Source of the DNA: a virus
DNA: 64,000 bases
Reading direction: 5' to 3' (one strand)
Virus record (IMG/VR): IMGVR_UViG_3300037424_002120
Span: 1 to 64,000 of that record
Shown here in pieces: positions 20,641 through 56,648 of this stretch; positions within the stretch are counted from its first letter, which is position 1; each line of letters starts with the position of its first letter. A program made the position numbers and the translations under genes. The notes under the pieces were generated by a model, which had not been told where the DNA came from, searched no databases, and worked only from the letters and a program-made list of their open reading frames with translations.

Positions 20641-21896
20641 GTCATGAACCCCATGCATAAATGCAGGGGCTTGTAGCTAGGCGCGTCCTGCTACGATAGG
20701 CTGCATGACAGGTACAGCCCGGGAGATGTTTATGGCTGCGTTCCGATCTGCGTTATCAGAATGCCCACACTTTTTACAGACAAAGGAGGCTTGACTCTTG
20801 CGATTAGCTTTCTCACAGTGCCCACATGCTGAGCACGTACGGGATGTATTTCTTGGGTCGACCGTATACAACGGGACACCTGCAAGAGCAGCTTTGTACG
20901 AGAGGAAGAACCGGAGTTGCCAGAATGACCAAGAGCTATGCATCGGACGCAGGACCTTCTTAACCGTGCGTTCCAGTCCTTGACGGGACCGGATGTGTCT
21001 TAGATCCTCGATTGCAATTGCTTGTCTATGATCTTTTGCCTTCTTGACAATATGTTTGGAGATAACGTGGTTTGTATTTTTCCTAAATCGGGCTTCCCTC
21101 CCAGAAAGTTTTTTGAGATGTCTTTTTGCCGACTTGGTGCCTCGTTTCTGAAGATCAGAGCGAAGTCTCAGCATACGCTTGCGAGTCTTCTCAACAGCTT
21201 CCCCGCTAAAGGACTCACCTTCGGAGTCGGTGGCAATTTGGATTATGCCCAGGTCGACTCCGAGCGTGCCTCCTTCCTCAGCCTCGTAGGGCTCAGGAGC
21301 GGGAACATCAAGCGTAACGGCAAGGTAGAAGGTCCCATTACGATAGAGCAAATCGGCTTGTCCCTTGATGGCATTCATACGGGATTGCTGGTAGCCGCCC
21401 ATCCTGAACGGGACAATCACACGTCCCTGCAATGTCAGGAGGGAAACCTCACTCAATCCTTTGAATGCCATCAGGCGCTCATCGTAGGTTATCGCACCTT
21501 CAGATCGAAACAACGGCTTGATGCTCTTATCCCGCTTGTAGCTATCGACTACCTTGCTGATGGCACGGATAGTCATTTGAGACGACAAGCTAAAGCGCTT
21601 GCGGATATCGCCATAGACCAGCTTCTGAAGCTCAAATTTGTTTGCGAGCTTCCATTCAAAAGCCGTCTGGGCAATATCGTTACACGCATCGTTGAACGCA
21701 TGCATCGTCTCAAGAAGAGCAGTATGTTGTTCTGGCGAAGGTGCCAGTTTCAAGAGCATTGTTTGTTTCATGCAAGGATTATACCACCGTTAGAGCGTTC
21801 TTGTCAATACCATTCTAATGGGAAGATTTTCGCGTCTACGGGTGCCTTTCTTACCTCCCCATGGATAAATCCAGGGGCTTCCCGAAAGGACTCCTG
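20641..21896 (-). mobile_element. IS200/IS605-family element carrying TnpB only
   Basis: Inserted 3' of TCAC; left hairpin CCCCTGGATTTATCCATGGGG, right hairpin CCCCTGCATTTATGCATGGGG, ends TGAC; no target duplication; excision restores the host frame. Confidence 0.9.
20677..21771 (-). CDS. tnpB: TnpB RNA-guided endonuclease with intact catalytic residues
   Basis: GVDLG, AIEDL and NADRNAA RuvC motifs; CSAC/CKKC zinc finger. Confidence 0.95.
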   Translation of the reverse strand: MKQTMLLKLAPSPEQHTALLETMHAFNDACNDIAQTAFEWKLANKFELQKLVYGDIRKRFSLSSQMTIRAISKVVDSYKRDKSIKPLFRSEGAITYDERLMAFKGLSEVSLLTLQGRVIVPFRMGGYQQSRMNAIKGQADLLYRNGTFYLAVTLDVPAPEPYEAEEGGTLGVDLGIIQIATDSEGESFSGEAVEKTRKRMLRLRSDLQKRGTKSAKRHLKKLSGREARFRKNTNHVISKHIVKKAKDHRQAIAIEDLRHIRSRQGLERTVKKVLRPMHSSWSFWQLRFFLSYKAALAGVPLYTVDPRNTSRTCSACGHCEKANRKSQASFVCKKCGHSDNADRNAAINISRAVPVMQPIVAGRA

Positions 21897-22293: not shown

Positions 22294-22516
22294 AGCCGTT
22301 CTTTCTTCTATAATTTTGCTCCACTGTGACCTCATTGATCACCTTTGTATTGTAGCACAATATTGTATTATTCGCAATACTTTTGATGGCAGTCTTGAGC
22401 TTGCGCATAGACTCGTTATTGATTGTTTTGCAACACATGATGTAATTAGGATGACTGTACAGGAGAGAGCAAAAAGAAAGAACCTGGGTTGTCCAAGCTC
22501 TTTGCGTCACATTCTT

Positions 22517-24127
22517 TTAAAACTCACTGCGCAGGAATGCACTCATTATCTCAGGAACAGCCGTGTCAAAGCCGCATACTTCAAGTGCTCTTTTATCATC
22601 AGGAGCATTATTAGTGACATGAGTCGCTGTCATCTGCACATTAACGATACGAGCTTCAGCATTGATTTGTCTTCTGTATGCTTCAAGTGCCTGTACAGGC
22701 TGCTGATGGCCTTGCCAAGTTTCACTATCCGACAAAATGACAAATGCATCAACTTCTAGTTTATTCTTTAGAGCATATTCCATTGGCAATGCAAGATTTG
22801 TACCACCACCACCGTATTGCTTCAAGATCTGCACAGCATCGTCAAGTCTTTGTTTTGGTGAAATGGGCAAACCATGTACTGATGTGTCAACACCTATTAT
22901 GTGGTAGTTACTCTCGCTATTTGCCAGAACCAAGGCCATGGCACCTGCTGCCGTATGCACTTCAAGATTTGGAATACCATTGACGGTGGCATTACGCATT
23001 GATCCGCTTGTGTCGATTGCCAGCAAGATGCGCTTACCCGTTGGCTCCACATTGTTAAATGCCAGATAGAATGCGTCATTTAACGCATCTACAATGTCCT
23101 GTACCGGAGTCCAAGTATTGCTGCCACGCACGCTCTTACCACTCTGATAGGTCGTTAATGCAGACAAGATCTTAATCGGATGTAATCGAGCCTTTAAGAT
23201 TGCATCTCGATTGCGTAGCCGCTCTGCAATCTGCCGTGTCATGTCACCCATCGGCAAGATCACACCTTCTCTGGTCATTGTTGCCAGATTGCGAGTCATG
23301 GCCTCCATTGGCATATCTTCAAGCAATGCTTCCCAGACACGCACTGAATGCAGGTATTGAGTCGGAACGGCCTCACGCGGCAATCTATACTCTTTGATCA
23401 GAGCCGCTACTTCCTTGTCATCGGCTGCACACTTGGCTTTCTCATATGCCCAGATAATCCTGAGTGCCTCATCAGAATGCGGTTCGTCTCCTACATTCTC
23501 CCAACCTTTGGTTACCCAGTGATACAGCGCATTGTATGTATCCGTTGTGGCCTTCGGGTGCGCAAGCCTCAATAAGTCTCTCTGGCTGTACCCATCCCTT
23601 TGCTGATATTTTAAAAGCTGATAAGCTAGGTTCTGCTCTTTGCGATCATTAAACCATGAGGCAACGGCACGTCTGTAAGCGCGGCCCCATCCTCTGAACT
23701 GCTTTGTGTAAGCGACAAAATGCAGCAAGTGTGTTCCTGTACGCGCTACTTGTGGAAGGATTGACAATGCATATTGGCGTATTTCTTGATCATCGGCGGC
23801 TGCACAACGAGCTAGAGCAAAAAGAGCAGGATCGTTTGAGGGTGCCCTGCCAGCTTTTGATATCTCAGCAATGGTGTTGACCACAGCCTTCCCCTGGCCC
23901 TCCTTCAACATGCGCTCTACTACATCTAAATTCTCTTTAACAAGCTTTCTCTCACCAACATAGTATGTTCCAGATTGTGCGCCTAATGTAACAAATCTAT
24001 GCAATCGCGTAATATCATCTACTGCGTAGCTGTACCCGCCTGCATTATTTAGAATCTGAGTAGAGCCAGGAATAGGCTCTGTTTGTGGTGTCGACTGCGA
24101 TCTTTTGCCAAAACCGAGATAATGCAT
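22517..24127 (-). CDS. rsr: Ro60/Rsr TROVE-vWA RNA-binding protein
   Basis: NNAGGY, RLHRFVTLG...TYY, KYQQRDGYSQRDLLRLAHP, MTRNL, LHP; vWA MIDAS DTSGSM; SDSETW; GFD. Confidence 0.95.
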   Translation of the reverse strand: MHYLGFGKRSQSTPQTEPIPGSTQILNNAGGYSYAVDDITRLHRFVTLGAQSGTYYVGERKLVKENLDVVERMLKEGQGKAVVNTIAEISKAGRAPSNDPALFALARCAAADDQEIRQYALSILPQVARTGTHLLHFVAYTKQFRGWGRAYRRAVASWFNDRKEQNLAYQLLKYQQRDGYSQRDLLRLAHPKATTDTYNALYHWVTKGWENVGDEPHSDEALRIIWAYEKAKCAADDKEVAALIKEYRLPREAVPTQYLHSVRVWEALLEDMPMEAMTRNLATMTREGVILPMGDMTRQIAERLRNRDAILKARLHPIKILSALTTYQSGKSVRGSNTWTPVQDIVDALNDAFYLAFNNVEPTGKRILLAIDTSGSMRNATVNGIPNLEVHTAAGAMALVLANSESNYHIIGVDTSVHGLPISPKQRLDDAVQILKQYGGGGTNLALPMEYALKNKLEVDAFVILSDSETWQGHQQPVQALEAYRRQINAEARIVNVQMTATHVTNNAPDDKRALEVCGFDTAVPEIMSAFLRSEF

Positions 24128-24152: not shown

Positions 24153-24217
24153 TGTCCTGAGCAATTTTGCGTTTACGGGTATATAAAGCAGATAACCATA
24201 AACATCGGCTCAGGACA
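24153..24217 (-). ncRNA. Minimal Y RNA (Ro-binding stem only)
   Basis: UGUCCUGAGC/GCUCAGGACA stem, CCGAU bulge, GUUUAUGG/CCGUAAAC stem, GGUUAUC motif; immediately upstream of rsr. Confidence 0.75.
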
Positions 24218-24229
24218 ATAATTCCGTAA

Positions 24230-24363
24230 TCTTGGATAAGCTGGTGTATCGGACTATTGCATTAGGCCACTCTGCCACTGATACAGGTTTCCCCGTACCG
24301 GTGGGATTCGAACCCACGAACCATTTTAACGGTGATAGGTAACCGATACTATCGACCCAAGAC
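24230..24363 (-). ncRNA. yrlA: YrlA-like Y RNA with a class II (Ser/Leu-like) tRNA-mimic domain
   Basis: UCUUGGGU/AUCCAAGA stem, GGUCGAU motif, GUAUCGG/CCGAUAC stem; T arm GUGGG-UUCGAAU-CCCAC precedes D arm GGCAGAGUGGCCUAAUGC (permuted order). Confidence 0.88.
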
Positions 24364-24379
24364 AAAATGATAAGACCTT

Positions 24380-24511
24380 TGAGATGGATAAAAGTAGGCA
24401 TTGGGTTAAGGTGCTCTACCAACTGAGCTACAATGAGTTACCCCATTGACAGGATTTGAACCTGCGACCACCCCGTTACAAGCGGTAACCAATACCAAGC
24501 GACCCAACTCA
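24380..24511 (-). ncRNA. yrlA: YrlA-like Y RNA with a class I tRNA-mimic domain
   Basis: GAGUUGGGU/AUCCAUCUC stem, GGUCG motif, GGUAUUGG/CCAAUGCC stem, T arm GCAGG-UUCAAAU-CCUGU, CAAUG/CAUUG capped acceptor stem, D arm GCUCAGUUGGUAGAGC. Confidence 0.88.
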
Positions 24512-24516
24512 CATGT

Positions 24517-24535
24517 ATTATACTAGCGCTGTCAA
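24517..24535 (-). promoter_or_regulatory. -10 element for the Y RNA/rsr operon
   Basis: TATAAT lies about 6 nt before the first Y RNA 5' end; TTGACA is only 7 nt upstream of it (non-canonical spacing). Confidence 0.55.
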
Positions 24536-24546
24536 CAGGAGGAAGC

Positions 24547-24626
24547 AAAAAGAAGTTGTCTGCCCGCGCTTTCGTCCCCCGTAGCTGCTCCTGTACACAG
24601 AGCGGCGGGCTGCTGCCACGATGGAC
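24547..24626 (-). ncRNA. Putative pseudoknotted small RNA or attenuator
   Basis: Own promoter TTGCCT-17-TATGAT (24659-24631); GUCC-AU-CGUGGC/GCUACG-GG-GGAC stem; internal GCCCGC pairs with 3' GCGGGC; U-tract follows. Confidence 0.55.
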
Positions 24627-24660
24627 TGCTATCATAGCACATTGCTATTTTTCAGGCAAC

Positions 24661-24727
24661 AAAAAGACCAGCCAATGCTCTCTTGGCTGGTCTCTTCGCA
24701 AGGCTCCGATGTACTGAAATATTACTA
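24661..24727 (-). ncRNA. Putative ~67-nt sRNA
   Basis: TTGACA-17-TACAAT (24761-24733); terminator AGACCAGCCAA/UUGGCUGGUCU plus U-tract; no ORF inside. Confidence 0.6.
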
Positions 24728-24762
24728 CAAGCATTGTACAGCCCATCGCAAAAAATGTCAAC

Positions 24763-24827
24763 AAGAAAGCCCGCCGTTGTGGGATAGCGGGCCTCTTGGG
24801 CATGGAGCTGGGGCTGGAAAGGTACTG
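24763..24827 (-). ncRNA. Putative ~65-nt C-rich sRNA
   Basis: TTGACA-17-TACAAT (24861-24833); terminator GCCCGC/GCGGGC plus UUUCUU; no convincing ORF within the unit. Confidence 0.6.
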
Positions 24828-24941
24828 GCCACATTGTACAGTTTGCCGCTTGCCTTGTCAAGTTGACGGCCTGTCGTACAATGCGAAGAGAGAGCGGGCT
24901 CGTACTTTAGTTTTGCAGGCCGTTAAACCCGCTCTCTTCTT

Positions 24942-25641
24942 CTACTCTACAATCTTCCACTCTTTCGCTACTAACTTCCATCGCTTCCTTGCTCTTGAGC
25001 CATCTACCTCTTCGTGGGATGGATATATCGCGTTTCTGTTCAGCTTACGGATTGAACTACAAAGCGGACATTCAACAGGAAGATTGTCGGGATTATCAAG
25101 TAAAAACACCTCATGAAAACTATACCGGCACTTGTTCACTGTGCCTCCTCTGGACTATCCAACTCTGGGATAATTTCTTTTCGCACTTTGAGCTTGTAGC
25201 TCTGCACTGGCTTGGGATAGATTGAGACAAGCCAACGCCTGTTCAGATCGTCATACTGAGCAATGCGAAGCTTGCACTGCTCGTAGTTACCTTCGTGCGA
25301 GTAGGCCGTAGCCACAAGGACGGCTGGCGTCAACTCTTTGGAGCGAGGAAGTTTGACGTAGACTTTCGCGCCTATGTCCGTTTTTGTGGCTCGTGGTTTC
25401 TTTGCGAGGTTCTCTGCCGACTTTTGCATGAGATAATCTGTTAATTCGTCCACGGCTCCTCCTCCTGATTTTTTGCGATTATCTCTTTTCTCACTTGTAT
25501 CATCTTTTTAAGATGCAGTTCATCTCCATCGACAACTTTCATGTTGAGGGCTCTTGCCACCTTTTTTATGTTTTTTATCGAGAGATCGCGATTGCAATTC
25601 TCTAACAAACTTATAATTGCTAGAGACTCTCCAAATGTCAT
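24942..25641 (-). CDS. Three small hypothetical genes (25441-25641, 25136-25453, 24942-25139; the last has a CxxC zinc ribbon)
   Basis: Overlapping start/stop codons and GGAGG-type SD sites. Confidence 0.6.
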
Positions 25642-30220: not shown

Positions 30221-31507
30221 CTAGAAGGGGATGAGCTTCTGAGTCACTTCAACGGGGTGGCCTGCTCCCGAGGGAACCTGCTCCAAGAGCAGTGGTTGAT
30301 CCGGTGACTGGCTCAGACAACAAGCACCCGAAGATGCCAGGGGCGTGTCTGCCCTACTACTACGCCGGGACAAGCCAGGACGTAGATACGTGACGGAACG
30401 AGGAAACGACACATGCTCATCAAAAGCGAGCTGATGCATATTGACACTGCCAACAATATCGCGGTGTCCTGTGAAGCCACAAGCCTTACATGCCCAATTT
30501 CTTCCCTTGGGTTTGTGTTTGTGCCCACAGACCGGACACTGGCTGCTTGTTCCTCGTTCGGAGCCAGTGAAGCTCTTGATGTGGGCCTGTTTGGATTTGT
30601 GAGTCAGGTAGTCGATATCCTTACCGTATTCCCACAAGGCCATGCGCTGATTATGGTGCCTCCCACAATTGCGGTTGCGGACACCATGGGGATTGCCGAT
30701 GAAGAGACTGCCAACTTTCTGTTCTTGGCAGAAGGTGATGACGGATCTGGTGGCTTTGTGTCGCAGATCACGAATGCGTCGCTCTGCTCTTGCCTTGATC
30801 TTGTTCTTGGCTCTTTGGATTTTCTTCCACCGTCTGGAGTACTTCGTGCATCTGGATTGCTTCTTCGCAATTTTGCCCAGTTGCTTGGTTCTCTGCCTTT
30901 TGAGAGATCGAATGCCACGACCTGTCACGATCATGGCTTGTCCTGTGTTTGTCGAGACGGCGGCAAGATGGATCTCTCCAAGGTCTACGGTTGCCTGAAC
31001 CGTTCCTGGTGCTTCCTTCTCTTGAGGTGTTTCAACACAGACATGCAGCTCAAATCCAGTGTTCCAGACAAGGCTACAAGCACCACTGTTCTCAGGGAGT
31101 TCGAGAGGCAGAACAATGGATTTGTTTCCTCTCCCCATTGGCAGAACAATCTTGTTGCCCTTTTTGCAGATAGCTTGTGCAGGCCAATGCACAGGATAGA
31201 AGCGCTTTTCCCTCCAAGGATACTTCATCTGCATTTGAGGATGGGTTTGACGAAGTTGACGTGTGGTATCGATATTCGCAAGAAAAGCATGCACCACCAT
31301 CTGCACAGACTGACTATGCAGTGCAAATTGTCCTTTGGTGGCTTTTTGCAAATCGCTTCGCCCAGGCCATGTGGCGTGTTCCATTCTGGCTTGCTTATGT
31401 GCCTCACAACACAGGTTCCACACTTTTGCGGATTCCATCTGAGCGGCTTTCAGACAAGCAAACAATTTTGGGGTGGGTTGCAATCGATACACACGGACTG
31501 TATTCAT
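30221..31507 (-). CDS. tnpB: TnpB (RuvC-II rearranged type)
   Basis: TVDLG; FIGN in place of the usual RuvC-II Glu, with a Glu in SERGTS; CPVC/CKAC; HRD; likely start MNTVRVYRL. Confidence 0.9.
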   Translation of the reverse strand: MNTVRVYRLQPTPKLFACLKAAQMESAKVWNLCCEAHKQARMEHATWPGRSDLQKATKGQFALHSQSVQMVVHAFLANIDTTRQLRQTHPQMQMKYPWREKRFYPVHWPAQAICKKGNKIVLPMGRGNKSIVLPLELPENSGACSLVWNTGFELHVCVETPQEKEAPGTVQATVDLGEIHLAAVSTNTGQAMIVTGRGIRSLKRQRTKQLGKIAKKQSRCTKYSRRWKKIQRAKNKIKARAERRIRDLRHKATRSVITFCQEQKVGSLFIGNPHGVRNRNCGRHHNQRMALWEYGKDIDYLTHKSKQAHIKSFTGSERGTSSQCPVCGHKHKPKGRNWACKACGFTGHRDIVGSVNMHQLAFDEHVSFPRSVTYLRPGLSRRSSRADTPLASSGACCLSQSPDQPLLLEQVPSGAGHPVEVTQKLIPF

Positions 31508-31521
31508 GGTAGTATTCTCGC

Positions 31522-31935
31522 ATGAATACAGATAGATTACAAGTGGGTAAAACCAGATGGTGCCATTACATGATCGGGTACCACTTGGTTTGGATACCCA
31601 AGTACAGGAGAAAAATCTTTGTGGGAGGAGTTGAAGCGGAAACAAAAAAGCTGATTGCAGCATGTTGTGAACAGCATGATGTGACACTTCTTGCGCTCGA
31701 AACGGATGTGGATCATGTCCATGTGTTTGTGAGTGCTCCTCCTCGCTTGAGCCCTTCAACGATTGCGGGACTGCTCAAAGGGTACACATCACGGTATCTG
31801 CGAGAGAAGTTCCCACATCTCAAGAAATTGTGTGGGAAAGAGCATTTGTGGTCAAGCAGCTATTATGTTGGCACGGCTGGGAGCGTTTCGGCGGAGGTCA
31901 TTCGCCGCTACATTTCTGAGTGCCAGGGAAAGTAG
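31522..31935 (+). CDS. tnpA: Y1 HUH transposase TnpA
   Basis: YHLVWIPKYRR, DHVH (HUH), LKGYTSR, LWSSSYY, RYI. Confidence 0.97.
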   Translation: MNTDRLQVGKTRWCHYMIGYHLVWIPKYRRKIFVGGVEAETKKLIAACCEQHDVTLLALETDVDHVHVFVSAPPRLSPSTIAGLLKGYTSRYLREKFPHLKKLCGKEHLWSSSYYVGTAGSVSAEVIRRYISECQGK

Positions 31936-36260: not shown

Positions 36261-36674
36261 CAAACGTCCTTTCTGGATACCCCTGCCCTTTAGGCATGGG
36301 GAGGAATGAAAGCATCCCACAGGCTGGAAAATCGGTTGTATATCCTACGAGTTGTAGGAAGTGGTGGCTGACATTGTGAGTGCCACAACGGGCGTTACCC
36401 GTGCCACCATCAGCCAGTTACGGCGCACTGCTTGCGCAGGTAATGGTTGCCTCGACAAGGTTCAAAGCGGTTTAACGCTGCAAGCACTGGCACTAACCCT
36501 CGTCAGCCTGTTTAACCTGCAGCCGTAGAGCATCGGGCTGGCACGCACCCTATGGTACCTATTTCGCCATGAACGTAGTTTCTGTTTCAAAACTGAGTCT
36601 GGTCAGGTGAAACCGTTAGCAACCCGCGAGCGGATTACTGCAAGCCCCTGCCCTTTAGGCATGGGGTCCCTGAC
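36261..36674 (-). mobile_element. Non-autonomous IS200/IS605 (IscB-type) element, 414 bp
   Basis: Identical CCCCTGCCCTTTAGGCATGGGG hairpins at both ends; TCAC target on plus strand; ends TGAC; no nuclease ORF. Confidence 0.88.
36425..36674 (-). ncRNA. Standalone IscB omega-RNA (HEARO-like) scaffold
   Basis: GACCAGACUCAG...AACUACGUU...AUAGGUACC..GGGUGCGUGCCAGCCC..GCUCUACGG...UAAACAG...CAGUG...AAACC...AACCUUGUCGAGGCAACCAUUACC series of motifs. Confidence 0.85.
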
Positions 36675-38110: not shown

Positions 38111-38851
38111 TTATTTGAAGTACTCATCTGCATGAATAAAATCAACACCAGCCGCCTTTGCAGCTTGCTCATCCTCATCACGGTCACCAACCATCAGCGT
38201 GTCCTCTGGGAGGATATCCGCGTCATTCATAGCCTCCCACAGCATCCCAGGACCTGGTTTACGCCTGTCGCTGTCTTCTCTGTATTGATCAAGAGAGGCT
38301 TTGGGATGGCTATAGCAGACATAGAGCCTGTCAGGATAGACACGAGCCTCTATGCACATCCTGGTCAGCTCATCCTGGATATCCTGAGATTTCATATATC
38401 CGAAAGCAACCCCACCTTGATTGGTGGCTATGGCGACGATTATTCCGCTATCGATCAAGGAATGGATCCTCTGAAGACGGCGTGGGAGCCACTTCCAGTC
38501 ATTGGCAGATTTACGGAATGTTTCACCGCTTTTGGTTCTAACTAAAGTACCATCTGCCTCAGATATGACCAGTTTGTACGTCTTCAAGCGTGTTGTTAAT
38601 CCCGTCGTTTCTGGAACTTTATACACATATTCACTCGGAGCCACGTACTTTGACCAGTTACTTTCCTGAAATTTTTGCATTCTCTGTTCCTTCGTTTTGT
38701 CTTGTTCTGCTCTTTTGGCAAATTCGATCAATTCTTTCGAGAAATTTGCCAAAAACCCCATTTGCTCTTGAGAAGACAATAATCTTAAATGCCCTGCCAT
38801 GACTTGAAGTATAGCATTAAGCTCCAAATCATCTGGGATGTCTTGTTGCAT
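38111..38851 (-). CDS. HAD-IIIA phosphatase (polynucleotide 3'-phosphatase/GmhB-like) with an N-terminal extension
   Basis: EADGTLVRTKSGETF...DW, TNQGGV, RRKPGPGML, MVGDR..D..AA..AG. Confidence 0.85.
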   Translation of the reverse strand: MQQDIPDDLELNAILQVMAGHLRLLSSQEQMGFLANFSKELIEFAKRAEQDKTKEQRMQKFQESNWSKYVAPSEYVYKVPETTGLTTRLKTYKLVISEADGTLVRTKSGETFRKSANDWKWLPRRLQRIHSLIDSGIIVAIATNQGGVAFGYMKSQDIQDELTRMCIEARVYPDRLYVCYSHPKASLDQYREDSDRRKPGPGMLWEAMNDADILPEDTLMVGDRDEDEQAAKAAGVDFIHADEYFK

Positions 38852-39170
38852 TGTGTTATCCTTTCTAATGATGCTCATCATGGATACATTCACCGTCCTT
38901 GAAAACACGATAGCTTCCTACACGCTCATCCACCGGAATACGTTCCAATTTATTTATGAACTGAAAACGAGACATGGTATTTGCTTTTGCTTCGTGATCA
39001 GGTTTAAACCCTTTTGCAGCTAAATCACTCAAAACGGATGAAACGTTCTTCTTATCGACAATGATTGAATGCTTGTACACTGTGTTGTCCTTTCTTTCCT
39101 CCTTGCAAGGGGTGCTATACAGGGAAGAAATCGTCGGGCGCTTCTTGCTCAGGAGTCAATTCTAAGTCAT

Positions 39171-54570: not shown

Positions 54571-54680
54571 ACAACGAGTTTTACAAGTCTTCAAAATTGG
54601 TCACTAAATCTATTGACAACAGTGCGAAGATGTGGTATTATTCAATTGTAGTCAAACGCGACTACAAAACAAAAAAATAA
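54571..54680 (+). promoter_or_regulatory. Repeated promoter cassette 1
   Basis: GTTTTACAAG leader, TTGACA(54613)-17-TATTAT, hairpin TTGTAGTC/GACTACAA, A-rich tract. Confidence 0.85.
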
Positions 54681-54721
54681 ATGAAGCGTCACCTGAAACT
54701 TGACGCGAAGGAGATCGAACA

Positions 54722-54895
54722 ATGAACTACGAATTAGGAAGAGTTAAAGCAAATGGCGAGTGGGAAACACAAATGGTGAACGTAATACGAGTACAGGAGG
54801 ATGGTAGAAAGATTGGGGACATCTACACAGAGGAAGGTAAGAAGATAGTGGTAAAAGATGCAGATGCCTACTATTGGAAGATTGTAGAAATCTAA
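54722..54895 (+). CDS. 57-aa hypothetical protein (not in the ORF track)
   Basis: SD AAGGAG; MNYELGRVKANGEWETQMV...YWKIVEI; terminator GAGGTTGGGGA/TCCCCAACCTC plus T-tract follows. Confidence 0.75.
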   Translation: MNYELGRVKANGEWETQMVNVIRVQEDGRKIGDIYTEEGKKIVVKDADAYYWKIVEI

Positions 54896-55090
54896 ATCCT
54901 GGAGGTTGGGGAATTGATCCCCAACCTCTTTTTTATGCTCAAATGCCTCTGGTTAAGCACTACAGCCACGCAGTGCAGCGCTGTCGTCGAAGCGGTGGCT
55001 TTCCCCGCGTGCACACTGACAAGGGCCTTGCTGGCCTCCTCGTGCTTTCTTCACCAGCTGTGCACACCGCATAGACACATGGCTAACGGG

Positions 55091-55233
55091 CACAACGGTT
55101 TTTACGAGTTTCTAAAACTGATCAAAAACTGCTCTAAAATCTATTGACAACAGTGCGAAGATGTGGTATTATATTGATAGTGAAGCGAACGAGACTTCAC
55201 AAAATAAAAGCAAAACGAAAGCGAGAAAACAAA
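55091..55233 (+). promoter_or_regulatory. Repeated promoter cassette 2
   Basis: TTGACA(55144)-17-TATTAT identical to cassette 1; hairpin GTGAAG/CTTCAC. Confidence 0.85.
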
Positions 55234-55728
55234 ATGGCAAACATGATTTTAGACTTCGGCAAAAACAAAGGTTTGACGATCGGCGAATGTGATGAGAAGT
55301 ATTTAAAGTGGTTAGTAAGTCACACCAAGGTTCTTGCAGAGCGAAACCGCTGGGCCAGCCGCGATGCACGGTTTGAGCTTGATCGTCGTGAGTGGGCACT
55401 GGAAGAGGCAGCGGCTATCGCGAGAATTGCAGCATTAGAAGCCACGATGGCTCCTGTAGCCGTCGTAGAGCGCAAGAAGATATTCGATGCGCAGTTGTGT
55501 TGTGAAGTGTGGTCGGATACCGGCGAGCGTTGTGTTGCGCAGGTGTGGCTGGAGGGCATTGGTTGGGTTACTCCTCCAGGCTCTGAAGAAGTCGTCGAGG
55601 TTGAGCAAGGACTGAGCTGGTCCTACGCAGTGAGACGCAACAACAGCAAAATGCGCTTGAAGGCTGAAATCAAGAACATCGGTCAGCGCGGGAACCTCAA
55701 CCGCAAAGCCTTCTCAATCCTACGGTGA
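55234..55728 (+). CDS. FGKxKG-domain protein with a C-terminal KAFSILR tail
   Basis: LDFGKNKG.TI..CDEKYLKWL; start lies downstream of the cassette promoter. Confidence 0.7.
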   Translation: MANMILDFGKNKGLTIGECDEKYLKWLVSHTKVLAERNRWASRDARFELDRREWALEEAAAIARIAALEATMAPVAVVERKKIFDAQLCCEVWSDTGERCVAQVWLEGIGWVTPPGSEEVVEVEQGLSWSYAVRRNNSKMRLKAEIKNIGQRGNLNRKAFSILR

Positions 55729-55864
55729 GTGGCTACAGAGGCCTTCACCGCCGCTGGCACTGTTTATTCCATCGCTCGGGTGCAGGACCACTGTTGGCCT
55801 TCTCAATCGCTTTCGTGGGTTCAGGCGCTTGATTGCAACTCACTCCACGCACCTCATTTATTTT

Positions 55865-55997
55865 GCAAAACAAGTTTTACGAGTTTCTGAAAACTGCCGA
55901 AAATTGGTCTAAAATCCATTGACAAGTGTGCGAGGTTATGGTATTATATAAATGTCCCCAAGAGGACAAACAAAAAACGAAAGCGAGAACAAAACAA
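55865..55997 (+). promoter_or_regulatory. Repeated promoter cassette 3
   Basis: TTGACA(55919)-17-TATTAT; hairpin TGTCC/GGACA. Confidence 0.85.
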
Positions 55998-56327
55998 ATG
56001 CTAACAATCAATACCACCTTCTACAGCGAGCCAAGCACCTTCACGGCGGAGTCCTGGGAGCAGGAAGAAGTCGCATACATGAGGAACTCTGACGAGGCAT
56101 ACATTTTCTACGGTAGCGATGCACAAAAAGATGCAGTTGAGGCATTCTTGAGCGATCACTTCGATAGCATGTTCTTGGTGAATGACGACAGGATCTTCAC
56201 TTTCTTCACTAATACACCTCTCACAAACGAGCAGCTCCTCGAAATTGAAGATGCAGGAATTGCATTTGATCGATTTGAGAAATCGAATTACGGGATTTAC
56301 GAATTGATTGATACCGAGGCTGAATAA
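55998..56327 (+). CDS. Very acidic small protein
   Basis: MLTINTTFYSEP...; many Asp/Glu, few Lys/Arg. Confidence 0.7.
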   Translation: MLTINTTFYSEPSTFTAESWEQEEVAYMRNSDEAYIFYGSDAQKDAVEAFLSDHFDSMFLVNDDRIFTFFTNTPLTNEQLLEIEDAGIAFDRFEKSNYGIYELIDTEAE

Positions 56328-56515
56328 GCCTCCCCCTTTCGGGGTGCCCGTGCTTGGGTGGCCAGATTTGCGTTTCACAGCCAAATCTGGCGGCTCCGCT
56401 GACGAGATGGATAATTTCTTCGTGGGCGCATGCGTAGGCCGTCTGCTGCCCTCCTGGCACGCACGGGGCGCTTCTACGCACATCGTTTCCTACGCAGTCC
56501 TCCGTATCATCGGTG

Positions 56516-56648
56516 TGCAAAACAAGTTTTACGAGTTTCTAGAAACTCACCAAATTGCCATCAAAAGTGCTTGACAAGTGTGCGAGGTTATGGTATTATA
56601 TAAATGTCCCCAAGAGGACAAACAAAAAACGAAAGGAGAAAACGAGAG
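56516..56648 (+). promoter_or_regulatory. Repeated promoter cassette 4
   Basis: TTGACA(56571)-17-TATTAT; about 65 bp identical to cassette 3. Confidence 0.85.

What the first reader, a model, noticed from the sequence alone, without database searches (positions are those of the whole stretch)
24547..24861. Tandem ~100-bp array of single-sRNA transcription cassettes beside Ro60
Seen: three back-to-back units with -10 boxes at 24833, 24733 and 24631. The first two share TTGACA-17 and CTGTACAATG, and each has a 65-70 nt non-coding body closed by its own terminator abutting the next -35. Both bodies contain CAGUAC, and one has an anti-SD-like ACCUUUCC and C-rich run that could pair with GAAAGG ribosome sites. 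With the Y RNAs this makes six ncRNAs in about 700 bp next to an RNA-binding ring protein. Inference: a possibly undescribed phage RNA-effector locus (antisense sRNAs, sponges, RNA anti-CRISPRs or Ro60 cargo).
Basis: partly seen in the sequence, partly recalled or inferred. Interest (0 to 1): 0.8.

Follow-up and report, generated by a model that had tools for sequence, protein, structure and literature searches.

The report
Phage small-RNA cassette array beside Ro60
An uncultured phage carries a swappable cluster of very short, self-contained RNA genes just upstream of its Ro60/Y-RNA operon, one of them a conserved knotted RNA that travels with Ro60; the cluster looks real and non-coding, but nothing shows yet that the RNAs are made or what they do.

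Summary
The anatomy is largely as described. Two near-consensus promoters (TTGACA-17-TACAAT, 11 of 12) lie 100 bp apart. Each drives a body of about 65 nt closed by a strong hairpin and U-tract terminator.

The third unit is a different thing. Its -35 is weak, it has no canonical terminator, and it belongs to a three-member structured-RNA family. That family has 6 compensatory base pairs and a likely pseudoknot, and carries GACGAAAG, which fits the published Y-RNA Ro60 motif GNCGAA(N)G. It lies upstream of rsr in two phages and downstream in a third.

I also found a fourth unit. A divergent promoter is fused back-to-back to P1, and its RNA would be antisense to the end of the upstream ORF.

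A relative with 91% identical Ro60 has a homologous but reshuffled array, and another at 90% has none. A soil contig carries the RNA1+RNA2 block at about 97% identity, and its sequence departs from the window at both ends. So these behave as exchangeable, moron-like RNA genes. No conserved coding frame or Shine-Dalgarno site was found.

Function is not established. No RNA run holds the stretch, no phage antisense target stands out, and the CRISPR-repeat mimic idea could not be tested.

Earlier notes of this scan concern this same genome only, not other DNA.

Verdict: real, a new variant of phage small-RNA genes, of moderate interest.

The parts
24855..24882 (+). P0, a divergent promoter (TTGTCA-16-TACAAT, 10 of 12) whose -35 overlaps the -35 of P1
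   Evidence: The same arrangement is conserved in L004 (TTGTCAACTTGACGGCTTGTCGTACAAT).
24889..24950 (+). Predicted RNA0, about 60 nt: a hairpin at 24889..24937 followed by a U-rich tail. It is antisense to the terminator and the last codons of ORF 25139..24942.
   Evidence: Fold -18.5 kcal/mol, z -2.2. The L004 counterpart folds at -22.3 kcal/mol, z -4.2. Flagged by my promoter-plus-terminator scan. Transcription is inferred.
24833..24861 (-). P1 promoter, TTGACA-17-TACAAT (11 of 12)
24762..24826 (-). RNA1, about 65 nt: a C-rich, mostly unpaired 5' part (ACCUUUCC, CCCC, CUCC), then a terminator hairpin at 24798..24762 with the C-rich loop UAUCCCACAA
   Evidence: The hairpin is homologous to that of L004 RNA1', with 3 compensatory pairs and a conserved C-rich loop. 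The 5' parts are unrelated. The start site is inferred from the -10 box.
24733..24761 (-). P2 promoter, TTGACA-17-TACAAT (11 of 12). Its -35 overlaps the U tract of T1.
24660..24726 (-). RNA2, about 67 nt: a weakly structured 5' part holding the GAGCCUUG box, then a terminator hairpin at 24697..24661 with AGAGCA in its loop
   Evidence: -25.8 kcal/mol, z -4.7. Two L004 cassettes belong to the same family and share GAGCCTT, the AGAGCA loop and compensated stems.
24631..24659 (-). P3, a weaker promoter: TTGCCT-17-TATGAT with an upstream TG (9 of 12)
   Evidence: The TATGAT or TATGCT box lies at the same distance from the RNA3 core in L004 and L008.
24558..24627 (-). RNA3 core, about 70 nt. P1 is UCC.UCGU.GC paired with GC.ACGG.GGA. 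P2 is a hairpin. A long-range stem GCCCGC/GCGGGC crosses P1, giving a pseudoknot. GACGAAAG lies between the 3' strand of P1 and the 3' strand of the long-range stem. A U run follows at 24555..24546.
   Evidence: Alignment A1. 98% of cells are paired, with 6 pairs changed on both sides. Model R1 scores 94-98 bits on the three members only. No Rfam family.
24154..24512 (-). Context: three Y-RNA-like modules. Y1 is 24512..24381 and Y2 is 24364..24228, both tRNA-like. A minimal hairpin lies in the rsr leader at 24216..24154.
   Evidence: Rfam YrlA E 2.4e-7 and tRNA-like matches. The motif G[AG]G[CU]CG.U...GGUUA[CU]C occurs three times.
22517..24127 (-). Context: the rsr (Ro60) gene, 536 aa
   Evidence: Pfam TROVE 1.5e-43 and vWA_Ro60 1.6e-46.

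Best explanation
This is an accessory, modular island of non-coding RNA genes at the head of a phage rsr (Ro60)/Y-RNA operon. It is made of two kinds of element.

(a) Moron-like small-RNA genes. P1 to RNA1 to T1 and P2 to RNA2 to T2 are self-contained sigma-70-type transcription units making RNAs of about 65 nt. A divergent promoter P0, fused to P1, would make a short RNA antisense to the 3' end of the upstream ORF, in the manner of lambda OOP. RNA1- and RNA2-type RNAs have a variable 5' part and a conserved 3' hairpin with a conserved loop: C-rich UCCC(A/C)CAA in the RNA1 type, AGAGCA in the RNA2 type. The RNA2 type also has a single-stranded GAGCCUU box. I infer that they act in trans on host RNAs or proteins. 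The RNA1 type probably pairs its C-rich stretches with G-rich ribosome-binding sites. These genes are gained, lost and reshuffled between related phages.

(b) RNA3 is a separate, conserved, pseudoknot-forming RNA of about 70 nt that travels with rsr. I infer that it is a further ligand of the phage Ro60 particle rather than a base-pairing regulator.

Shown here: promoter and terminator anatomy, absence of coding signal, homology, covariation and modular exchange. Inferred: transcription, RNA ends, every target, and Ro60 binding.
For: Promoters. P1 and P2 score 11 of 12, are unique in the window for the extended pattern, and are 2 of 15 such promoters in 95 kb. The other strong promoter followed closely by a terminator precedes a real gene, tnpB.

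Terminators. Hairpins of -18 to -25 kcal/mol with U tracts, z -2.1 and -4.7. Real genes of this phage use the same kind of terminator (22503..22477 after rsr).

Homologous array. L004/L007 (Ro60 91%) has three TTGACAAT...CGTACAAT promoters, each followed by an 78-88 nt body with a hairpin. The RNA2 family shares GAGCCTT and the AGAGCA loop over compensated stems. The RNA1 and RNA1' hairpins have 3 compensatory pairs and a conserved C-rich loop.

Modularity. L003 (Ro60 90%) has none anywhere in its 69.8 kb record. A contig from soil run X3 holds 24645..24874 with 6 differences and runs on unlike the window at both ends. Another contig skips the upstream ORF.

Non-coding. Real genes here have AGGAGG 6-9 nt upstream, while the ORFs inside the array have none. 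Similarity to L004 appears in several frames on both strands, as expected for DNA-level conservation.

RNA3. There are three members in three contexts: upstream of the Y RNAs in the window, separated from them by another cassette in L004, and downstream of the rsr terminator in L008. 98% of cells are paired, 6 pairs changed on both sides, only 1 of 500 shuffles did as well, and all slid controls reached 64% or less. GACGAAAG in 2 of 3 members fits GNCGAAN0-1G, the proposed Rsr recognition motif (PMC4201824), which was also used to find phage Yrl RNAs (PMC12135203).

Precedent. Phage anti-sRNAs of 51-60 nt with conserved 3' regions and variable 5' ends sit at moron sites (PMC4104026).
Against: - There is no expression evidence at all, because no RNA run is listed for this DNA.
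- The families are tiny: 2-3 members, all from one phage clade with Ro60 identity of 81% or more. Covariation counts on three sequences are weak statistics.
- The 5' bodies of RNA1 and L004 RNA1' are unrelated, so most of the RNA1 body is not conserved.
- No target was found. The longest matches to the phage genome are 11-14 nt, at chance level. Best duplexes with phage translation start regions are no better than shuffled RNAs (20% and 40% of shuffles do as well).
- A close relative does without the cassettes, so they are dispensable for Ro60 function.
- The P1 helix of RNA3 is invariant and therefore unproven.
- The Ro60 motif is short, is mutated in L004 (GAAGAAAAG), and lies in the 3' part, whereas in Y RNAs it lies near the 5' end.
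- U tracts in the L004 cassettes are poor.
Confidence: 0.5

Rival explanations
1. Promoter and terminator debris, or insulation. On this view the units are duplicated copies of a strong early promoter followed by terminators. They mark recombination scars, or they insulate the rsr operon from upstream transcription. The short transcripts would be by-products with no function of their own.
For: The 5' body of RNA1 is not conserved between the window and L004. No targets were found. L003 lacks the array. The region is a recombination hotspot: L004 holds an integrase remnant and a palindromic insert, and contigs break at the edges of the block.
Against: Loop sequences (AGAGCA, UCCC.CAA) and the GAGCCUU box are kept while the stems around them change by compensation. 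Scars would not be expected to do that. Near-consensus promoters are kept in five cassettes across two phages. A single terminator would be enough for insulation.
Confidence: 0.2
2. RNA3 is a cis-acting leader (riboswitch or attenuator) that controls read-through from P3 into the Y RNA/rsr operon. On this view it is not a free-standing RNA.
For: In the window it sits directly upstream of Y1 with no canonical terminator. In L004 the 3' strand of the long-range stem can pair instead with a downstream segment in a hairpin of about 19 bp, which would be a mutually exclusive fold.
Against: In L008 it lies after the rsr terminator, facing a convergent ORF, with nothing downstream to regulate. In L004 a terminator, an integrase remnant and another cassette separate it from the Y RNAs. 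No Rfam riboswitch matched.
Confidence: 0.1
3. One or more of the RNAs are RNA anti-CRISPRs. They would mimic a repeat of the host's CRISPR arrays and trap Cas6 or Cas7.
For: Each is a small RNA directly downstream of a promoter and is not linked to cas genes, as described for solitary repeat units (PMC10651486). Earlier notes of this scan propose protein anti-CRISPR candidates elsewhere in this phage (I did not test this). RNA3 has a terminal stem followed by GACGAAAG, which from memory recalls the stem plus 8-nt handle of type I and type III repeats. That resemblance is only a lead.
Against: The defining feature, similarity to a host repeat, could not be tested. RNA3 tracks rsr rather than the proposed anti-CRISPR operons about 10 kb away. 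Its putative repeat stem would enclose about 30 nt of extra structure, which known examples do not have.
Confidence: 0.07
4. The RNA3 region encodes a micro-protein. All three copies keep an ATG inside the -10 box followed by an open frame of 33-65 codons.
For: The frame is open in the window (65 aa), L004 (33 aa) and L008 (39 aa). tblastn matches in that frame have E 2e-7 to 0.09.
Against: There is no Shine-Dalgarno site, and the ATG lies in the -10 box, so upstream of any transcript made from P3. Other frames on both strands match about as well. By my count, amino-acid identity between the window and L008 over the first 22 codons is about 41%, while nucleotide identity is about 71%. The changes are the compensatory stem changes. 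A 1-nt indel shifts the frame in L004.
Confidence: 0.05

Closest known systems
Prophage anti-sRNAs at moron sites of lambdoid phages (AgvB, AsxR; Tree et al. 2014, PMC4104026) and morons in general (PMC3594210)
   Same: Very short RNAs (51-60 nt there, about 65 nt here), each with its own promoter and rho-independent terminator. The 3' hairpin region is conserved and the 5' end is variable. They sit at a variable insertion site, and related phages have them or lack them.
   Different: There is no sequence or Rfam relation. The host is not an enterobacterium, and any Hfq dependence is unknown. Here the units are head-to-tail in series beside Ro60, not convergent pairs downstream of PR'. No target is known.
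Bacterial and phage Y RNAs (YrlA RF02553, YrlB, Yrn2; Chen et al. 2014, PMC4201824; Thermus phage phiLo Yrl1/Yrl2, PMC12135203)
   Same: Encoded within 1 kb of rsr on the same strand. RNA3 carries GACGAAAG, which fits GNCGAAN0-1G. Species typically have several Y RNAs, only one of which is tRNA-like.
   Different: RNA1-3 have no tRNA-like arms and no stem joining the 5' and 3' ends. The RNA3 motif lies in the 3' part, between two 3' strands of a pseudoknot. RNA1 and RNA2 have their own promoters and terminators, whereas in M. smegmatis YrlA and YrlB are processed from a single precursor. Ro60 binding is untested.
Lambda OOP RNA (from my own knowledge, not checked here)
   Same: RNA0 would be a short RNA from its own promoter, ending at a terminator, and antisense to the 3' end of the neighbouring gene.
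   Different: The overlap with coding sequence is only a few nucleotides. The hairpin is simply the shared bidirectional terminator. There is no sequence relation.
RNA anti-CRISPRs / solitary repeat units (Camara-Wilpert et al. 2023, PMC10651486)
   Same: A promoter-proximal small non-coding RNA in a phage that appears to invest in counter-defence.
   Different: No demonstrated likeness to any CRISPR repeat. The RNAs are not next to the candidate anti-CRISPR genes.

Membership tests
Y RNA (YrlA, Rfam RF02553) | tRNA-like T and D arms that match the covariance model | tested here: not met
   In the window, the YrlA and tRNA models match only between 24293 and 24492. Nothing matches 24546..24861 even at E up to 10, apart from a chance-level sroD match at E 2.3.
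Y RNA (broad sense, including YrlB and Yrn2) | GNCGAAN0-1G motif near the 5' end | tested here: inconclusive
   RNA3 has GACGAAAG in the window and in L008, but GAAGAAAAG in L004, and the motif lies in the 3' third of the RNA. RNA1 and RNA2 lack it. The motif definition is from PMC4201824.
Y RNA (broad sense) | Encoded within a few kb of rsr | tested here: met
   All units lie 420-740 nt upstream of the rsr start. RNA3 lies within 150 nt downstream of rsr in L008.
Y RNA (broad sense) | Bound and stabilised by Ro60 | not testable with these tools
   Needs RIP-seq or gel-shift assays.
Moron (independent transcription unit added to a phage genome) | Own promoter and own terminator flanking the cargo | tested here: met
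   Met by sequence only, for RNA1 and RNA2. Not met for RNA3, which has no canonical terminator.
Moron | Present in some related phages and absent from others, in varying context | tested here: met
   L004 and L007 have a reshuffled array. L003 and L008 have no RNA1- or RNA2-type cassettes. The X3 contig carries the RNA1+RNA2 block and runs on unlike the window at both ends.
RNA anti-CRISPR (Racr / solitary repeat unit) | Sequence and fold similar to a CRISPR repeat of the host | not tested
   The host is unknown.
RNA anti-CRISPR (Racr / solitary repeat unit) | Promoter within 250 bp upstream and no adjacent cas genes | tested here: met
   The criterion is from PMC10651486.
Any curated RNA family (Rfam 15) | A match to a covariance model | tested here: not met
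   In L004 only generic long-hairpin (miRNA precursor) chance matches appeared.

The most novel reading that the evidence does not exclude
RNA3 is a new, non-tRNA-like, pseudoknotted class of Ro60-bound RNA, and the RNA1- and RNA2-type hairpin RNAs may be too. On this reading, phage Ro60 loci would be exchangeable 'RNA adaptor' islands, in which swapping small RNA genes retargets the Ro60 particle to different host RNAs or nucleases.
Probability: 0.2. Interest if true: 0.75.

Novelty: new variant of a known kind. Interest (0 to 1): 0.5.

Why it matters
Phage Ro60 and its Y RNAs have no known role in infection. Phage small RNAs are characterised almost only in enterobacterial and a few other model phages.

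This locus packs up to seven predicted non-coding RNAs into about 800 bp and shows them being exchanged as cassettes between related phages. That makes it a compact system for asking what RNAs a phage Ro60 particle uses.

RNA3 is a concrete, synthesisable candidate for a new Ro60-associated RNA fold.

The practical limit is that the phage is uncultured and its host is unknown, so every test needs synthetic DNA in a surrogate host.

Tried and rejected
- **Cultured-phage relatives.** blastn of the locus against 50,697 phage records gave no match.
- **Rfam.** Gathering and E-value scans of the window and of L004 gave no family for RNA1-3.
- **More RNA3 members.** The exact 19-mer found only L004's contig. 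The gapped pattern gave four chance hits inside high-GC coding DNA. Model R1 over 18 sources found only the three seed sequences.
- **More P0/P1 regions.** The single extra hit lay in an unrelated tRNA-bearing contig.
- **Other copies in the relatives' full records.** None found.
- **Expression.** No RNA holder is listed, so this gives no evidence either way.
- **Antisense targets in the phage.** Longest matches were 11-14 nt, at chance level. Duplex scans against 144 Shine-Dalgarno-plus-start sites gave no outlier. The first version of that script timed out.
- **Pairing among the RNAs.** The best case was RNA1 with RNA3, where 7% (window) and 10% (L004) of shuffles did as well. RNA3 with Y2 reached 1.7%, but only as an unrealistically long duplex. 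I treat none of these as evidence. An 8-nt match between the L004 RNA1' loop (CUUCCCCC) and L004 RNA3 (GGGGGAAG) is not conserved in the window.
- **Host and its CRISPR repeats.** The protein atlas was uninformative about taxa.
- **Other cassette arrays in the genome.** Candidates at 85-86 kb lie inside a repetitive 1165-aa ORF and were rejected.

Full report
**Setting.** The window is the first 64 kb of a 95,482-bp IMG/VR virus record, about 87% complete. It has portal and terminase genes, a prim-pol/D5 primase-helicase gene, a ParM-like protein, a polynucleotide kinase-phosphatase and two TnpB genes.

On the minus strand, ORF 24127..22517 is a full Ro60 with TROVE (1.5e-43) and vWA_Ro60 (1.6e-46) domains. 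It is preceded by Y-RNA-like modules, one of which matches Rfam YrlA at E 2.4e-7. The finding concerns the 315 bp further upstream.

**Observation.** Reading the minus strand and the consensus scan confirm three promoter-like sites whose -10 boxes end at 24833, 24733 and 24631.

- P1 and P2 are TTGACA-17-TACAAT (11 of 12) and share CTGTACAATG.
- The extended pattern occurs twice in the window, both times here, against 0.00 expected.
- Only 15 promoters of this quality exist in the 95 kb genome.
- RNA1 (about 24826..24762) and RNA2 (about 24726..24660) each end in a strong hairpin plus U run that touches the next -35. Energies are -19.4 kcal/mol (z -2.1) and -25.8 kcal/mol (z -4.7).

Unit 3 differs. 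Its promoter is 9 of 12 with an upstream TG. The RNA folds no better than shuffles (z +0.7). Its only G+C-rich stem is long-range, with the U run 9 nt away. The TTGACA that follows is only 7 nt from TATAAT.

I also found a fourth unit. On the plus strand, TTGTCA-16-TACAAT (24855..24882) overlaps the -35 of P1 back-to-back. It leads into the hairpin 24889..24937 and a U-rich tail. This predicts an RNA of about 60 nt antisense to the terminator and last codons of ORF 25139..24942.

**Relatives.** Ro60-guided searches gave 2 viral, 1 genomic and 17 metagenomic loci.

L004/L007 (Ro60 91%) has a homologous but rearranged array:

- the same P0/P1 back-to-back region;
- three TTGACAAT...CGTACAAT promoters, each with an 78-88 nt body and a hairpin;
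- an RNA3 copy;
- a palindromic insert of about 100 nt;
- a C-terminal remnant of a tyrosine integrase.

L003 (Ro60 90%) has protein genes running up to its Y RNA and no cassette anywhere in its 69.8 kb record. L008 (Ro60 81%) has five Y-like modules, no RNA1- or RNA2-type cassettes, and an RNA3 copy immediately downstream of the rsr terminator. More distant Ro60 loci have none of the three.

Laying public contigs on the locus showed a soil-run contig that covers 24645..24874, exactly P1 to T2, with 6 differences. It runs on unlike the window at both ends. Another contig skips the upstream ORF. The cassettes therefore behave as exchangeable modules.

**Families.**

- **RNA2 family.** Window RNA2 and two L004 cassettes share the promoter, a single-stranded GAGCCUU(G/U) box, and a terminator hairpin whose loop keeps AGAGCA while the stem changes by compensation.
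- **RNA1 family.** RNA1 and L004 RNA1' share only the 3' hairpin, with 3 compensatory pairs and the loop UAUCCCACAA versus UUCCCCCAA. Their 5' parts (28 nt and 52 nt) are unrelated.

A variable 5' end with a conserved 3' hairpin is the design reported for prophage anti-sRNAs at moron sites (PMC4104026).

**RNA3.** The three copies align over 76 nt at 83% mean column identity. I propose three helices:

- an invariant helix P1;
- a hairpin P2;
- a long-range stem (GCCCGC/GCGGGC, GCUCAC/GUGAGC or GCCUGC/GCAGGC) that crosses P1, giving an H-type pseudoknot.

On this structure 98% of cells are paired and 6 pairs changed on both sides. Only 1 of 500 shuffles did as well, and partners slid by 1-3 columns gave 64% pairing or less with at most one such pair. 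With three sequences this is suggestive, not proof, and P1 rests on conserved complementarity alone.

The linker between the 3' strand of P1 and the 3' strand of the long-range stem is GACGAAAG in two copies. This fits GNCGAAN0-1G, the motif proposed for Rsr recognition in bacterial Y RNAs (PMC4201824), which was also used to locate phage Yrl RNAs (PMC12135203). The motif is mutated in L004 and is not near the 5' end.

RNA3 is upstream of the Y RNAs in one phage, separated from them by a terminator and another cassette in a second, and downstream of rsr in a third. A cis-regulatory leader is therefore unlikely, and a free-standing RNA functionally tied to rsr is the simplest reading.

**Coding test.** True genes in this region have AGGAGG 6-9 nt before the start, and no ORF inside the array does. 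Similarity to L004 and L008 appears in several frames on both strands, as expected for DNA-level conservation.

The one frame open in all three RNA3 copies starts at an ATG inside the -10 box. It loses its register in L004 through a 1-nt indel. Between the window and L008 it is about 41% identical in protein against about 71% in DNA (my count).

**Function tests that could be run.**

- No RNA-seq run holds this DNA, so transcription remains inferred.
- The RNAs have no complementarity to the phage genome beyond chance 11-14-mers.
- Their 5' parts pair with phage translation start regions no better than shuffled versions.
- Pairing among the RNAs and Y RNAs gave nothing I would rely on.
- The CRISPR-repeat mimic idea could not be tested, because no host sequence could be reached.

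**Conclusion.** The locus is a real, probably non-coding, modular RNA island. It holds two autonomous moron-like small-RNA genes, a probable antisense RNA from a divergent promoter, and a distinct structured RNA that co-travels with Ro60.

The most likely mechanisms are inferred, not shown. RNA1- and RNA2-type RNAs probably act in trans through a variable 5' region and conserved hairpin loops, and the C-rich RNA1 type may target G-rich ribosome-binding sites. RNA3 may be an additional Ro60 ligand.

It is a new variant of known kinds (phage small-RNA morons, and multi-RNA Ro60 loci), with new RNA families but very few members and no expression data.

Earlier notes of this scan on the same genome had already flagged RNA3 as a pseudoknot and the three Y RNAs. 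I found no note of the same thing on other DNA.

Noticed in passing
L004:3331-3645: Between RNA3 and the next cassette, L004 carries a perfect palindromic element of about 100 nt. Its left arm reuses the 3' strand of the RNA3 long-range stem. A terminator follows and, on the opposite strand, the last roughly 35 codons of a tyrosine recombinase (...LGHSNLKTTSDYLQVH...). This points to past integration or recombination at this spot.
   Followed up: partly
window 24517-24535 (minus strand) and L004:3761-3779: TTGACA and TATAAT lie only 7 nt apart just upstream of Y1, and the arrangement is conserved in L004. This is not a normal sigma-70 spacing. In L004 the -10 has an upstream TG, so the Y RNAs may use a promoter that depends on the -10 alone, or may depend on read-through from P3.
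   Followed up: no
L008:3200-3760: This relative has five consecutive Y-RNA-like modules upstream of rsr, by my reading (the motif scan caught three). The window has three, and L003, L004 and L009 have two each. Y RNA copy number varies widely within this phage clade.
   Followed up: no
L009:2800-3780: A 5' Y-RNA-like fragment (GAGAUGGGCCGCUAUGUAG...) is followed by an HNH-type endonuclease-like ORF (my reading of the sequence, not run against Pfam) and only then by the intact Y RNAs. This looks like a homing-endonuclease insertion into the Y RNA array.
   Followed up: no
window 38111-38908 (minus strand): A polynucleotide kinase 3'-phosphatase / HAD protein (PNK3P, 4.6e-14). This is an RNA-end-healing enzyme that fits an RNA repair or anti-nuclease theme together with Ro60 and the tRNA-like Y RNAs. 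No RtcB-like ligase turned up among the 20 ORFs I ran against Pfam.
   Followed up: no
window 54613-56600 (plus strand): Four near-identical strong promoters (TTGACAA...GTGCGA.G.T.TGGTATTAT) spaced 500-800 bp apart. The shared spacer sequence suggests a common operator.
   Followed up: no
window 30221-31759 (minus strand), 20677-21771 (minus strand), and 36440-36674 (minus strand): A second TnpB-like ORF of 512 aa in addition to the one downstream of rsr. There is also a full-length HEARO RNA match (132 bits).
   Followed up: no
genome 85353-88850 (beyond the window): A 1165-aa ORF built of many copies of a unit of about 45-50 nt containing AGTACG(T/C)GT(A/G)TT. It produced false promoter-plus-terminator candidates in my scan.
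   Followed up: partly
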